IMG/VR virus record: IMGVR_UViG_3300036770_005357
Source of the DNA: a virus
Lineage: Duplodnaviria; Caudoviricetes
Reading direction: 5' to 3' (one strand)
DNA length: 64,000 bases
The position numbers were made by a program, and so were the translations under genes. Positions 56,815 to 59,414 of the stretch are shown here, piece by piece; positions within the stretch are counted from its first letter, which is position 1; each line of letters opens with the position of its first letter. Under the pieces are notes generated by a model. That model worked only from the letters and a program-made list of their open reading frames with translations. It ran no database searches and was not told the origin of the DNA.

Positions 56815-57555
56815 ATGGCATTGGTAAACTATACATATCTTTTAGATCAAAACAACTTAATTAGTTGGTTAACTTCTATTTCCGAGACCGATCCTAATCC
56901 AACAATAAGAACTGCTGCCAAAAAAATAGCATTTAATGTAAGTGGAAATAAAATAATAGAAAGTTGGTATTATTATAACGAACTTTATAAAAAATATCAA
57001 TTTAAATTAGTAACCATAAATACCATAAACGGATTTAATGTAGTACTTTATTCTTATACAAATCAAGGTGAAAAATTTATAGGCAGTGTTAAAAAATATG
57101 TTCCAGCGAAACCTATACAAGTAAAAAGTTTATCTGTTCCAATTGTTGATGAAATTGGTACAACATATGATAGAACTCCTTCTATATCAGGATTTTCAGA
57201 CGCCAATCTACAAATTTACATTTACGACGGTGGTCAATTACTTGGTCAAACTACATCTAACGAACTTGGTGAATGGGAATTTACCGTAACAACGAATCTA
57301 TCATTCGGAAATCATTCAATAACTGCCGTAGCTTCAAACGGAACGGAATTCAGCAATTCCAGTAAAGTTGTAAATTTTACAATACTTGAAATAACCGTTC
57401 CCACTGTAACATTCACATCACCTACAGATGACACGACACCTACAATTACAGGTACAGCGCCTGCTTTAAGCACAGTCACGGTTTATAATAATGAAAGTCC
57501 GATAGGTACAACAACCGCTGATAGCGAAGGTAATTGGTCATTTACATTAACTTAA
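56815..57555 (+). CDS. protein with one complete and one half bacterial Ig-like domain
   Basis: DRTPSISG...GEWEFTV...GNHSITAVA (complete), then DTTPTITGTA...GNWSFTLT* (half). Confidence 0.85.
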   Translation: MALVNYTYLLDQNNLISWLTSISETDPNPTIRTAAKKIAFNVSGNKIIESWYYYNELYKKYQFKLVTINTINGFNVVLYSYTNQGEKFIGSVKKYVPAKPIQVKSLSVPIVDEIGTTYDRTPSISGFSDANLQIYIYDGGQLLGQTTSNELGEWEFTVTTNLSFGNHSITAVASNGTEFSNSSKVVNFTILEITVPTVTFTSPTDDTTPTITGTAPALSTVTVYNNESPIGTTTADSEGNWSFTLT

Positions 57556-57560
57556 AAAAC

Positions 57561-59414
57561 ATGTCAACACCAAATCCATTATTAGCCCCTAGATATTTGA
57601 CGGGAACAAATTATTATGTTGAACCTAGCCCTGGTGTATATGAACCCGGCTTGCCAAAATGGGGTGTAACAATTAATCCAAGTGGATGGTCAGCACCTGC
57701 AAATACACCAAAAAATAAACCTGAATATTATGGATATAGAATCGGTCAAGAAAACATAATCCCATATGTTTATTCAATATTATGGAATTATACATCTTGT
57801 TCAATAAGTACAGGAACTCATTGGTGGGGAAGAAAAAGTACAGACCCTTTTTGGACAACTGCCGCTCCGGCAGCTGACATTTTATTAATATTAGGATATT
57901 CTCCATTAAATAATAAGATCACAATCAGTGGTTCTGGAATTGACAACACAATATTGAAACGAGTAGATGAATCTGATTTAATAGGAGGATATGCTACATT
58001 TCCTATAGTGCCAACGGGAATAACAAACACAAGTACAGGTGAAATTTCGGGTGGTACCACTACTTTAAAAATATGTTGGCGAGATCAACATACTACACCT
58101 TCAGCTTATTATTGGTACAAAAATAATGTTTTAATATCGGGTGCTAATAGTTCCGAATATACAATCACACTTGCAGCCGGAGGTGCTGCAGCGGGAGTTT
58201 ATAAATGTGGTGTGAACATGACACCTTCATATCAAGGTTCAAGTAATTTTGCTACAAGTAATGAAGTTACTATAACTTACAACAGTTCAAAATATTACGC
58301 AAGTTATTACACAATAACTTCTAACAGAATGATACAAGCTTACGGTGCAACATTTGGTGTAAATAGTACTGATAATGTTTTAATTGAAGGAATAACTTTT
58401 GATGGTAATCATACTAATAATTACACAACAAACAGTCCGACAAGTGATTGTCTTTCTCTAATAGGAACAAATCACAGAATAAATAAATGTAAATTTGTTG
58501 ATTTCGGCGTTGGAAATACTGTGTATGAATACGATTCAACAAATCCAAGTCCTGGTTTAGCGGAAACTTTCGTAATACTGTCACAACCACCTACTGCTAA
58601 TTGGAAAACAAATCTCGGACCTAAGATAGAAAATTGTATATTTACACAAAATGGAGTTAAAGACGGACCTGAACAGTATCCAACAGTTACAACATCTCAT
58701 ATTCCAGAATATACATGTATAGCTGTACACGGATCCGGTTCGGTTGTAAAAAACAATCAATTTATAGATCTATTGTTTGATGACGATCATAGAAGCCCAA
58801 TCCACGCTATTAGTTTCGGTGGAAATTATTCTGGATCATTTTACGAAAATACATTCAAAAATGTACAAGGTCCGTGTTTTTACATTGATAGTTACAAAGT
58901 AACCGGTTCAAAAATTCAAGACAATTATTGTAGCAGTTCTTGGAATTTTATAACTCTTACATCACAAACTTGGCCGTCAACAAATCAAATTGCAAATTTC
59001 AAAAATATAGATATGAGAGATAATACAGTGATATTATCGGATGGACCAACAACATATAATTACTTCGTAGGTATGGGTGGTGGATTTTGGCCAAGTCATC
59101 ATATTGCATATTTTGCCAGTTCTACTTTGGTACATCCGTATGATATGGTTACTAGTAGTTTAAATGTAATTAAAAAAGGATATTGGGATGGAACTCCGCC
59201 GGATTGGGCATCAGGTGCTGTTCCACAATCGGCTGTATATAGTTACATTATATTTCCAAGAGACTCCTCTATGGCAACAAGATGTGTGGGCCCAACATAT
59301 ATAACATCTTCAAATGAAATATTTGCTTCTAGATTGTTATCCATAACAGCAACTGCTGCTATAGGAGGACAAACAAGTGACGCTAGTACATCACAAACAT
59401 TGATAATAACCTAA
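57561..59414 (+). CDS. right-handed beta-helix (pectin-lyase-like) protein with an inserted Ig domain and a C-terminal half Ig-like domain
   Basis: ITISGSGIDNTILK, NVLIEGITFDGN, IENCIF, VKNNQF; Ig-like YYWYKNNVLISGA...GVYKC; ends SITATAAIGGQTSDASTSQTLIIT. Confidence 0.8.
   Translation: MSTPNPLLAPRYLTGTNYYVEPSPGVYEPGLPKWGVTINPSGWSAPANTPKNKPEYYGYRIGQENIIPYVYSILWNYTSCSISTGTHWWGRKSTDPFWTTAAPAADILLILGYSPLNNKITISGSGIDNTILKRVDESDLIGGYATFPIVPTGITNTSTGEISGGTTTLKICWRDQHTTPSAYYWYKNNVLISGANSSEYTITLAAGGAAAGVYKCGVNMTPSYQGSSNFATSNEVTITYNSSKYYASYYTITSNRMIQAYGATFGVNSTDNVLIEGITFDGNHTNNYTTNSPTSDCLSLIGTNHRINKCKFVDFGVGNTVYEYDSTNPSPGLAETFVILSQPPTANWKTNLGPKIENCIFTQNGVKDGPEQYPTVTTSHIPEYTCIAVHGSGSVVKNNQFIDLLFDDDHRSPIHAISFGGNYSGSFYENTFKNVQGPCFYIDSYKVTGSKIQDNYCSSSWNFITLTSQTWPSTNQIANFKNIDMRDNTVILSDGPTTYNYFVGMGGGFWPSHHIAYFASSTLVHPYDMVTSSLNVIKKGYWDGTPPDWASGAVPQSAVYSYIIFPRDSSMATRCVGPTYITSSNEIFASRLLSITATAAIGGQTSDASTSQTLIIT

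What the first reader, a model, noticed from the sequence alone, without database searches (positions are those of the whole stretch)
56815..59414. An Ig-like domain split across two genes, with a beta-helix and a nested Ig in between
Seen: gene 1 ends mid-domain (DTTPTITGTAP...GNWSFTLT*). The missing strands appear at the very end of gene 2 (SITATAAIGGQTSDASTSQTLII from 59340), which aligns without gaps to gene 1's complete Ig (SITAVASNGTEFSNSSKVVNFTI, 9/23 identical). About 590 aa of beta-helix, itself interrupted by an Ig domain, lies between. Gene 2 is in the -1 frame, has its own ATG 5 nt after the stop, and there is no X XXY YYZ slippery site before the stop; one extra T (ACT TTA AAA AAC ATG) would fuse the two. 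Inference: either two polypeptides that lock together by strand complementation, analogous to donor-strand exchange and allowing swappable enzymatic/binding modules on the virion, or a nested insertion with a frameshift.
Basis: partly seen in the sequence, partly recalled or inferred. Interest (0 to 1): 0.7.

Follow-up and report, generated by a model that had tools for sequence, protein, structure and literature searches.

The report
Ig domain split by nested enzyme gene
In an uncultured giant phage, a gene for a sugar-cutting enzyme, with its own stop and start signals, sits inside a small Ig-like domain, so the domain is made as two pieces on two proteins that probably snap together and hold the enzyme on its anchor protein.

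Summary
Gene 1 (56815-57555) ends after the first half of its second Ig-like (Big_13-type) domain. Gene 2 (57561-59414) starts 5 nt later in the +2/-1 frame. It encodes a polysaccharide-lyase-like beta-helix with a nested Ig, and it ends with the missing Ig strands.

Joined, the two Ig pieces match one uninterrupted Ig repeat of syntenic relatives: 61% identity over 85 columns, with one 3-residue gap at the joint.

It is not a sequencing error. Contigs from four runs of four studies cross the junction without indels. Relatives keep the same two-gene layout and the same gene-2 N-terminus, and three of them have a stop that blocks any frameshift fusion.

In those relatives the same [stop-start-beta-helix] module splits a different beta-sandwich: the FN3-like N-domain of a PhoD phosphatase, cut after its first strand. 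Unsplit versions of both sandwiches exist elsewhere.

A controlled complex prediction rebuilds the Ig sandwich in trans (ipSAE 0.67, best control 0.45).

Best reading (about 0.6): two polypeptides joined by split-domain complementation, in a locus where modules are swapped between phages. The main rival (about 0.27) is an insertion scar with no reassembly. Binding and virion location are untested.

The parts
56815..57555 (+). Gene 1 (246 aa): conserved N-domain, then Ig1, then the first half of Ig2, then a TAA stop
   Evidence: N-domain relatives in 16 metagenome loci
56815..57129 (+). N-terminal domain (residues 1-105) of unknown fold. It is the conserved 'anchor' part of the family.
   Evidence: 42-56% identical to the N-domains of L003, L007 and P0100-P0102; no Pfam or Atlas lead
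57148..57399 (+). Ig1, a complete Big_13-type Ig-like domain (residues 112-195)
   Evidence: Big_13 profile positions 23-100 of 102
57400..57552 (+). Ig2 N-half (residues 196-246). It ends ...GNWSFTLT, in the loop before the SITATA strand.
   Evidence: Big_6 positions 11-53 of 83 and Big_13 positions 24-68 of 102; 69% identical to the N-part of P0100 repeats; 70.5% DNA identity to an L024 Ig repeat
57553..57560 (+). TAA stop of gene 1 plus the 5-nt spacer AAAAC before gene 2's ATG. This is the left edge of the nested module.
   Evidence: no indel in four runs
57561..59414 (+). Gene 2 (617 aa): N-terminal leader, beta-helix with a nested Ig, and a C-terminal tail made of the Ig2 C-half
57561..57710 (+). 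N-terminal ~50 aa with the LLAPRYL motif. The motif is kept in all gene-2 homologues that follow a gene-1 homologue, and is absent from the free-standing paralogue.
   Evidence: low pLDDT in the model
57972..58352 (+). Ig-like domain nested in the beta-helix (residues ~138-264)
   Evidence: absent from the paralogue and from P0014-P0017; Hoc-like phrog_4069 at residues 159-218; beta strands in the model
57711..59324 (+). Right-handed parallel beta-helix (residues 51-137 and 265-588), polysaccharide lyase/depolymerase-like. The module ends at ...TSSNEIF.
   Evidence: AF2 pTM 0.82; Foldseek best match RbmB lyase 9ozd, E 2.2e-6, then alginate epimerase/lyases, GH110 and phage depolymerases; homology to relatives stops at residue 588
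59325..59411 (+). Tail (residues 589-617, ASRLLSITATAAIGGQTSDASTSQTLIIT): the missing C-terminal strands of Ig2
   Evidence: disordered in the monomer model; forms the whole predicted interface with the Ig2 N-half
55335..56775 (-). Conserved left flank (399-aa and 73-aa genes), shared with the syntenic relatives L024, L025 and L028
   Evidence: window 55300-57022 is 86% identical in DNA to L024; same gene order
59414..60426 (.). Conserved right flank: 54-aa gene (-), SNase-like nuclease (+), GNAT acetyltransferase (-)
   Evidence: window 59385-60441 is 95% identical in DNA to L024

Best explanation
This is a hypervariable two-gene 'anchor plus effector' cassette of an uncultured giant phage.

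Gene 1 carries a conserved N-terminal domain and an Ig spacer. Gene 2 carries a beta-helix that resembles polysaccharide-cutting enzymes, with a nested Ig. A DNA segment made of a stop codon, a 5-nt spacer, a start codon and the beta-helix module lies in a loop of an Ig repeat.

The ribosome therefore makes two separate chains. This step is shown. Translational coupling between the two genes is likely, given the 5-nt gap, but is inferred.

The chains are then joined without a covalent bond by rebuilding the Ig sandwich. Gene 1 supplies the first strands, up to GNWSFT. Gene 2's last ~25 residues supply the remaining strands: SITATAAI pairs with STVTVYN of gene 1, and the final TLIIT strand lies next to gene 1's first strand. 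This step is predicted, not shown.

The same module splits an FN3-like sandwich in relatives. Split-domain complementation therefore looks like the family's way of hanging exchangeable effector modules on a constant anchor.
For: 1. Two polypeptides.
- Gene 2's start is the conserved N-terminus of its homologues.
- The relative frame varies between loci: +1 in L007, +2 elsewhere. L003, L017 and L020 have a blocking stop before the ATG.
- No indels in contigs of four runs from four studies, including marine 2024, aquatic 2017 and freshwater 2025 samples.
- Strain differences are 21 synonymous to 10 non-synonymous, so both genes are under purifying selection.

2. The two Ig pieces are one domain.
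- The chimera equals one Ig repeat of P0100: 61% identity over 85 columns, with a 3-residue gap at the joint. N-half and tail are about equally similar to that repeat, 69% and 70%.
- It is collinear with L007's uninterrupted Ig2.

3. Predicted assembly.
- ESMFold2 complex of whole gene 2 with gene 1 residues 106-246: ipSAE 0.67 (runs 0.66-0.68), best of 3 controls 0.45. That mark was reached by 58 of 80 solved complexes and 2 of 110 mismatched pairs.
- The runs agree in at least 99% of contacts, and the partner's pLDDT is at least 91.
- The interface is gene 2 residues 587-617 against gene 1 residues 192-235 and 245.
- In the gene-2 monomer model the tail is disordered, pLDDT below 50.

4. Precedent in relatives.
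- In L001-L003, L017-L020 and L007, gene 1 ends with ...GVIFAMAGGGETYL*. After its beta-helix, gene 2 continues with FPTSSMRL... and a PhoD module.
- In the unsplit proteins of L011, L021 and L001 gene 3, the same peptide (FAVVFSMAGGGETYGGLTPTSSMRL in L021) sits directly before that module.
- Pfam Pur_ac_phosph_N begins at profile position 11 right after it, so the peptide fits the first strand of that domain.
- Between L017 and L020 the AGGGETYL codons differ at 4 synonymous sites and no non-synonymous site.

5. Gene 1's C-end type goes with gene 2's type, not with the N-domain lineage.
- L007 and P0102 have 76% identical N-domains but carry different C-end and gene-2 pairs.
- L020 and L021 have 99% identical N-domains, likewise with different pairs.
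Against: - No experiment exists; binding is a model's opinion.
- With the partner kept and gene 2 replaced by an unrelated protein, the control still scored 0.45. The model tends to complete the half-Ig with whatever it is given, and the margin of +0.22 is only just over the mark of 0.20.
- Halves of a split domain can pass by likeness to solved Ig structures. My own alignments were used, so the calibration counts hold only roughly.
- A single insertion into an intact Ig gene gives exactly complementary halves without selection. An in-frame right joint has about a 1 in 3 chance.
- No strain variation was seen in the tail itself, so selection on it is untested.
- The role of the N-domain as an anchor, and any virion location, are inferred only. 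The neighbouring genes are not structural.
- The attempt to model the unsplit FN3 of L011 failed, so 'first strand of FN3' rests on profile alignment.
Confidence: 0.6

Rival explanations
1. Insertion or recombination scar without reassembly. A [stop-start-beta-helix] segment landed in an Ig repeat. Gene 1 now ends in an unfolded half-domain, and gene 2 is a free enzyme with a vestigial tail. The two proteins do not bind through the Ig pieces.
For: - The locus is a recombination hot spot. DNA identity to the syntenic L024 is 86-95% in the flanks and is lost between about 57022 and 59385.
- Close relatives carry quite different cassettes.
- One insertion gives complementary halves automatically.
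- The complex control with an unrelated chain 1 scored 0.45.
- A free-standing paralogue of the beta-helix exists in the same genome.
Against: - The donor arrangement in relatives is itself a split sandwich, kept across lineages, with a conserved gene-1 C-terminal peptide.
- Gene 1's C-end type goes with gene 2's type.
- The window's pair lost both halves of the donor's docking pair and gained both halves of another.
- The predicted complex passes its controls.
- Both genes are intact and under purifying selection in four sampled populations.
Confidence: 0.27
2. One polypeptide. The stop is bypassed by a programmed frameshift, a ribosomal hop or transcriptional slippage, or the stop is an assembly error. 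The beta-helix would then be a true nested domain in a single chain.
For: - Gene 2 is in the -1/+2 frame with a 19-nt overlap of open frames.
- An A6 run follows the stop.
- Ig-like domains of phage structural proteins are sometimes added by programmed frameshifts (own knowledge: Fraser et al. 2006, J Mol Biol).
Against: - There is no slippery heptamer in the 19-nt overlap.
- The A run begins inside the TAA codon, so changing its length keeps the stop.
- No indels appear in four runs.
- Relatives have a different relative frame or a blocking stop, and a conserved start.
Confidence: 0.03
3. Decaying locus. The insertion disrupted gene 1, and one or both genes are on the way to being lost.
For: - Closely related phages do without this cassette.
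- Other contigs in runs X4 and X6 join the right flank to unrelated sequence.
Against: - Both ORFs are intact in four runs.
- Strain differences are 21 synonymous to 10 non-synonymous.
- The beta-helix core is well conserved and folds confidently.
Confidence: 0.05

Closest known systems
Donor-strand complementation/exchange in chaperone-usher pili (own knowledge, e.g. FimC-FimH, PapD-PapK)
   Same: An Ig-like sandwich that is incomplete in one polypeptide is completed by strand(s) from another polypeptide, giving a very stable non-covalent joint.
   Different: Here two to three C-terminal strands are missing, not one, and they come from the partner's C-terminus. Both pieces derive from one domain split by a nested ORF. 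There is no chaperone, usher or polymerisation. Binding is predicted only.
Anchor/adaptor systems for phage tailspikes and depolymerases (own knowledge: G7C gp66-gp63.1, CBA120 TSP1-4, K1-5 adaptor)
   Same: A conserved attachment part carries exchangeable beta-helix enzymes. The locus differs between close relatives.
   Different: Those systems dock through folded N-terminal adaptor domains of the enzyme. Here the proposed joint is a single beta-sandwich shared between the two chains, at the enzyme's C-terminus. Virion location is not shown here.
Phage genes split into two ORFs whose products reassemble (own knowledge: T4 topoisomerase genes 39/60, split DNA polymerase gp43 or nrd genes in T4-like phages, often beside homing endonucleases)
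   Same: One ancestral coding unit appears as two adjacent ORFs. Unsplit versions exist in relatives.
   Different: The intervening DNA encodes no endonuclease, intron or intein (no Pfam hit). It encodes a functional enzyme module that is translationally fused to the downstream half.
Engineered split Ig/FN3-type domains (own knowledge: SpyTag/SpyCatcher from CnaB2, split FN3)
   Same: A beta-sandwich cut in a loop reassembles from a large piece and a short C-terminal peptide, and serves as a docking device.
   Different: This would be a natural, non-covalent case. No isopeptide residues were examined.
Ig-like domains on phage structural and decoration proteins (T4 Hoc, PMC10385173; Fraser et al. 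2006, own knowledge)
   Same: Arrays of Big/I-set-type Ig domains act as spacers or weak adhesins. The nested Ig of gene 2 hits a Hoc-like PHROG.
   Different: In those proteins the domains are whole and lie in one chain.

Membership tests
Big_13/Big_6 bacterial Ig-like domain | Match over the full length of the domain profile | tested here: met
   Ig1 matches Big_13 positions 23-100 of 102. Ig2 in gene 1 covers only positions 24-68 of 102. With the gene-2 tail added, it covers one whole natural repeat of P0100, 61% identity over 85 columns.
Right-handed parallel beta-helix polysaccharide lyase/hydrolase (depolymerase-like) | Beta-helix fold | tested here: met
   AF2 pTM 0.82. Foldseek probability 1.00 and E 2.2e-6 to RbmB 9ozd, then AlgE epimerases, GH110 and Klebsiella phage depolymerases.
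Right-handed parallel beta-helix polysaccharide lyase/hydrolase (depolymerase-like) | Catalytic residues and substrate groove | not tested
   Sequence identity to solved enzymes is 8-13%. No residue mapping was done and there is no Pfam hit.
Donor-strand complementation system (chaperone-usher type) | An Ig fold lacking its C-terminal strand(s), completed by another chain | tested here: inconclusive
   The truncation is shown. Completion in trans is predicted, with ipSAE 0.67 against a best control of 0.45. There is no experiment.
Donor-strand complementation system (chaperone-usher type) | Periplasmic chaperone, usher, and an N-terminal donor extension with polymerisation | tested here: not met
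   No such genes are found in the locus. The donor segment is C-terminal and one-to-one. So this may work like donor-strand complementation, but it is not a member of the family.
Programmed -1 ribosomal frameshift | Slippery X XXY YYZ heptamer within the overlap of the two open frames | tested here: not met
   The 19-nt overlap (57534-57552) has no such heptamer.
Programmed -1 ribosomal frameshift | Frame relation and overlap conserved in relatives | tested here: not met
   L007 is in the +1 frame. L003, L017 and L020 have no overlap and a blocking stop.
Gene split by a mobile element (homing endonuclease, intron, intein) | Endonuclease, intein or ribozyme signatures in the intervening DNA | tested here: not met
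   Pfam finds nothing in gene 2. The insert is a conserved beta-helix enzyme module. No RNA-family search was run.
PhoD-type phosphatase with FN3-like N-domain (relatives only) | Pur_ac_phosph_N plus PhoD domains, and the first strand contiguous in unsplit proteins | tested here: met
   PhoD is found in P0002-P0005, L011 and L021. Pur_ac_phosph_N starts at profile position 11, just after the AGGG peptide. The structure model failed. The window's gene 2 has no PhoD part.

The most novel reading that the evidence does not exclude
The [stop-start-beta-helix] unit is a portable effector cassette. It can be dropped into surface loops of different beta-sandwich domains: an Ig repeat here, an FN3-like domain in relatives. 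Each time it splits the host gene into two polypeptides that reassemble by fragment complementation. That would be a natural, evolvable split-domain docking system, by which giant phages exchange enzymes on a constant anchor.
Probability: 0.4. Interest if true: 0.8.

Novelty: new variant of a known kind. Interest (0 to 1): 0.68.

Why it matters
If the two chains really join by rebuilding one Ig sandwich, this would be a natural counterpart of engineered split-domain tags. It would also be a docking principle for phage effector or receptor-binding modules that I did not find described in two full-text searches.

It would explain how module swapping can move an enzyme between unrelated carrier proteins while keeping it attached. 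It would also warn annotators that 'truncated' beta-sandwich domains at gene ends in phage genomes may be halves of trans-assembled domains rather than errors. And it offers short natural peptide-and-domain pairs that could be tested as protein-assembly tools.

Tried and rejected
- **Phage-database blastn** of 56000-60000: no match.
- **IMG/VR scan** with the N-domain alignment: no relatives.
- **Pfam on the 33-aa tail alone**: no Ig family. The piece is too short.
- **First home-made HMM test**: uninformative, because the model (67 nodes) lacked the C-terminal strands and composition corrections dominated. It was replaced by the C-half profile test and by direct comparison with P0100.
- **AF2 model of the unsplit L011 FN3/PhoD region**: mean pLDDT 36, unusable. 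'First strand of FN3' therefore rests on profile and sequence alignment only.
- **ESM Atlas search for the N-domain**: no usable lead.
- **Pfam on the N-terminal 265 aa of gene B of the relatives**: only a sub-threshold trypsin-like hit.
- **Two literature searches**: no description of a split Ig or FN3 docking in phages. Absence from that library is weak evidence.
- **Transcriptional slippage on the A6 run**: rejected, because the run starts inside the TAA codon.
- **Stop-codon reassignment**: rejected. TAA and TAG end the neighbouring genes, and relatives use TAA or TAG at the same place.
- **The short contig in run X4 ending ...TSQTIVIT\***: could not be fetched. It most resembles the end of gene B of L023.
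- **Parts of the stretch without contig cover in runs X6 and X7**: these say nothing either way.
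Full report
**1. What is there**

The window is part of an IMG/VR virus record of 105.5 kb that CheckV rates 36% complete. Gene 1's exact protein is also seen on a 305-kb contig. This is therefore an uncultured giant phage.

Gene 1 (56815-57555, 246 aa) has three parts:
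- an N-terminal domain of about 105 aa with no family match;
- a complete Big_13-type Ig-like domain, residues 116-190, profile positions 23-100 of 102;
- a second Ig-like domain that stops half-way, residues 205-246, matching Big_6 positions 11-53 of 83 and Big_13 positions 24-68 of 102.

The TAA stop at 57553-57555 is followed by AAAAC and then by the ATG of gene 2 (57561-59414, 617 aa) in the +2/-1 frame.

Gene 2 has no Pfam hit. Its AF2 model (pTM 0.82) is a right-handed beta-helix. The best Foldseek matches are the RbmB polysaccharide lyase (E 2.2e-6), alginate epimerase/lyases, GH110 enzymes and phage capsule depolymerases.

Residues ~138-264 form an Ig-like insert. It is missing from a free-standing 418-aa paralogue elsewhere in the same genome and from outside homologues, and it matches Hoc-like Ig.

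**2. The tail is the missing half of the Ig**

Homology of gene 2 to its relatives ends at residue 588 (...TSSNEIF). The last 29 residues are different.
- Against a profile built only from the C-halves of outside Big_13 domains, the tail scores above every one of 5727 other 29-mers of the window's ORFs. It also beats 98.5% of its own shuffles.
- The decisive comparison came from syntenic relatives. Gene 1 residues 191-246 joined to gene 2 residues 589-617 align end to end with a single Ig repeat of P0100 (residues 284-368). Identity is 61% over 85 columns, and the only gap, 3 residues, falls exactly at the joint.
- The N-half is 69% identical to that repeat. The tail is 70% identical (23 aa, E 1e-7), so the two pieces are equally diverged from it.
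- The same chimera is collinear with the closest N-domain relative, L007, whose Ig2 is uninterrupted.

**3. It is real, and it gives two proteins**

Contigs from four runs of four studies cross 57545-57565. One run may be the source of this DNA. The others are a marine metagenome of 2024, an aquatic one of 2017 and a freshwater one of 2025. All show substitutions but no indels. These were contigs, not raw reads.

The strain differences are 21 synonymous to 10 non-synonymous.

The homologues of gene 2 (P0002-P0005 and loci L001-L003, L007, L017-L020; 44-48% identity) begin at the same place, M-x-LLAPRYL, a few nucleotides after the stop of a gene-1 homologue.

In L003, L017 and L020 a stop in gene 2's frame lies between the upstream stop and the ATG. 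L007 uses the other relative frame.

The window's 19-nt overlap has no slippery heptamer. The A run begins inside the TAA codon, so changing its length cannot remove the stop. A single-chain product is therefore very unlikely.

**4. The same module splits another sandwich in relatives**

In L001-L003 and L017-L020, gene 1 consists of the N-domain, a Pro/Thr linker and then ...GVIFAMAGGGETYL*. In L007 it has two complete Ig domains and then ...GVDFTFAGSQITYTI*. In all of these, gene 2 is the beta-helix module followed by FPTSSMRL... and a PhoD-type phosphatase.

L011 has one 903-aa protein. It equals L020 gene 1 (residues 4-205 of 208) joined to L020 gene 2 (residues 560-1069, 73% identity). 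Only the last three residues, the stop, the start and the beta-helix module are absent.

Two more unsplit proteins, L021 gene 2 and L001 gene 3, show the same continuity. L021 reads FAVVFSMAGGGETYGGLTPTSSMRL.

Pfam's Pur_ac_phosph_N, an FN3-like sandwich, starts at profile position 11 immediately after this peptide. The peptide therefore fits the first strand of that domain. My attempt to show this with a structure model failed.

Between L017 and L020 the AGGGETYL codons differ at four synonymous sites and at no non-synonymous site. So the split-sandwich layout is old, conserved, and not peculiar to the window. What is peculiar to the window is the site: an Ig repeat rather than the FN3-like domain.

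**5. A module-swapping locus**

L024, L028 and L023 have the same flanking genes as the window: the 399-aa and 73-aa genes on one side, and the 54-aa gene, the SNase-like nuclease and the GNAT on the other. DNA identity is 86% (window 55300-57022) and 95% (59385-60441).

Between the flanks they carry something else:
- a gene 1 with six or seven complete Ig repeats, ending in ELDDILTTITNTIDTIISGL;
- a 524-aa gene B, with an unknown and possibly protease-like N-part and three Ig domains.

Across the family, the C-end of gene 1 goes with the type of gene 2:

| C-end of gene 1 | Gene 2 |
|---|---|
| helix-like peptide (ELDDILTT...) | gene B |
| AGGGETYL strand | beta-helix, rest of FN3, PhoD |
| ...DYITDD.DNYITTDIGEYLF... 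| a third gene type (MATKPIS...) |
| half Ig (the window) | beta-helix plus half Ig |

This pairing cuts across N-domain relatedness. The N-domains of L007 and P0102 are 76% identical, and those of L020 and L021 are 99% identical, yet each pair carries different cassettes. That pattern is expected if the C-end of gene 1 is the docking element for the product of gene 2.

**6. Direct test in silico**

I sent whole gene 2 and gene 1 residues 106-246, each with its alignment, to the controlled complex predictor.
- ipSAE was 0.67 (three runs, 0.66-0.68). The best of three controls was 0.45.
- The mark was reached by 58 of 80 solved complexes and by 2 of 110 mismatched pairs.
- The runs agree in at least 99% of contacts, and the partner's pLDDT is at least 91.
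- The interface is essentially the tail (residues 587-617) against the half-Ig (residues 192-235 and 245). Residues 594-601 (SITATAAI) lie along gene 1 residues 219-225 (STVTVYN), and residue 615 lies next to residue 204. That is a complete sandwich formed in trans.
- In the monomer model the tail is disordered.

Caveats:
- The control that kept the half-Ig and swapped gene 2 still scored 0.45, so the margin is narrow.
- Halves of a split domain can pass by likeness to solved Ig structures.
- My own alignments were used, so the calibration holds only roughly.

**7. Reading**

Most likely (about 0.6), the two chains are made separately, probably with translational coupling, and are held together by reconstituting the Ig domain. 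This tethers a polysaccharide-degrading-like enzyme to a conserved anchor protein.

The main rival (about 0.27) is that the layout is only the scar of one insertion. An insertion gives complementary halves automatically, and an in-frame right joint has a 1 in 3 chance.

Recoding to one chain (0.03) and a decaying locus (0.05) are poorly supported.

What the N-domain binds, and whether these proteins sit on the virion, is unknown. The neighbouring genes are tRNA arrays, a nuclease and an acetyltransferase, not structural genes.

**8. Novelty**

The mechanism resembles donor-strand complementation of pili and engineered split-domain tags. The biology resembles anchor/adaptor systems of phage depolymerases. 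It is a member of neither (see the membership tests).

Two full-text searches found no description of a natural beta-sandwich shared between a phage anchor and its effector. I rate it a new variant of a known kind, with high interest if confirmed at the bench.

Noticed in passing
L013:5612-6070, L014:5167-5625, L015:5197-5606: In three related contigs the gene-1 homologue has an in-frame TGA where L012 and all other relatives have a conserved Gly codon (GGA to TGA, codon 41). The rest of the ORF stays intact and conserved. This could be a nonsense allele, readthrough, or TGA read as Gly (code 25). The next gene has no in-frame TGA.
   Followed up: partly
L005:1192-2448 (G000:C1 about 88732-89988, outside the window): Free-standing 418-aa paralogue of the beta-helix (41% identity). 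It lacks the LLAPRYL leader, the nested Ig and the Ig tail.
   Followed up: partly
L011:7995-10706: A single 903-aa protein: N-domain, PT linker, complete FN3-like domain, PhoD, PT linker and a C-terminal domain. It is the unsplit, beta-helix-free counterpart of the two-gene layout of L020.
   Followed up: yes
L024:1566-5086, L028:977-4758, L025:606-3628, L023:1248-2980: Syntenic relatives carry a gene 1 with 4-7 complete Ig repeats ending in a conserved helix-like peptide (ELDDILTTITNTIDTIISGL or ELPELLTTVIDEFNTIL). It overlaps (ATGA) a 524-536-aa gene whose ~260-aa N-part has only a sub-threshold trypsin-like hit (GNSGNP/GESGNP motif), followed by three Ig domains.
   Followed up: partly
L008-L010, L012, L016 (gene-1 homologues of 149-152 aa and the next gene): A third cassette type. 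Gene 1 ends ...DYITDD.DNYITTDIGEYLF...PDP. Gene 2 (401-745 aa) starts MAT(K/R)PIS and ends ...GKYAKIKIGNQTYK(I/L)LLYA. Its function is unknown.
   Followed up: no
window 59412-59421: In runs X4 and X6, other short contigs share the right flank but join it at 59412 to unrelated AT-rich sequence, or at 59421 to a diverged gene end (...TSQTIVIT*). Further variants of the locus therefore co-exist in those samples.
   Followed up: partly
window 58347-58437: In run X6 the summed contig depth jumps to about 54 over this ~90-nt stretch of gene 2, with loose ends on both sides (58371-58422). A short piece seems to be shared with a more abundant sequence in that sample.
   Followed up: no
window 57561-57710: The first ~50 residues of gene 2 (LLAPRYL motif) are conserved in every gene 2 that follows a gene-1 homologue. 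They are modelled with low confidence and were not in the predicted interface. Their role is unexplained.
   Followed up: partly
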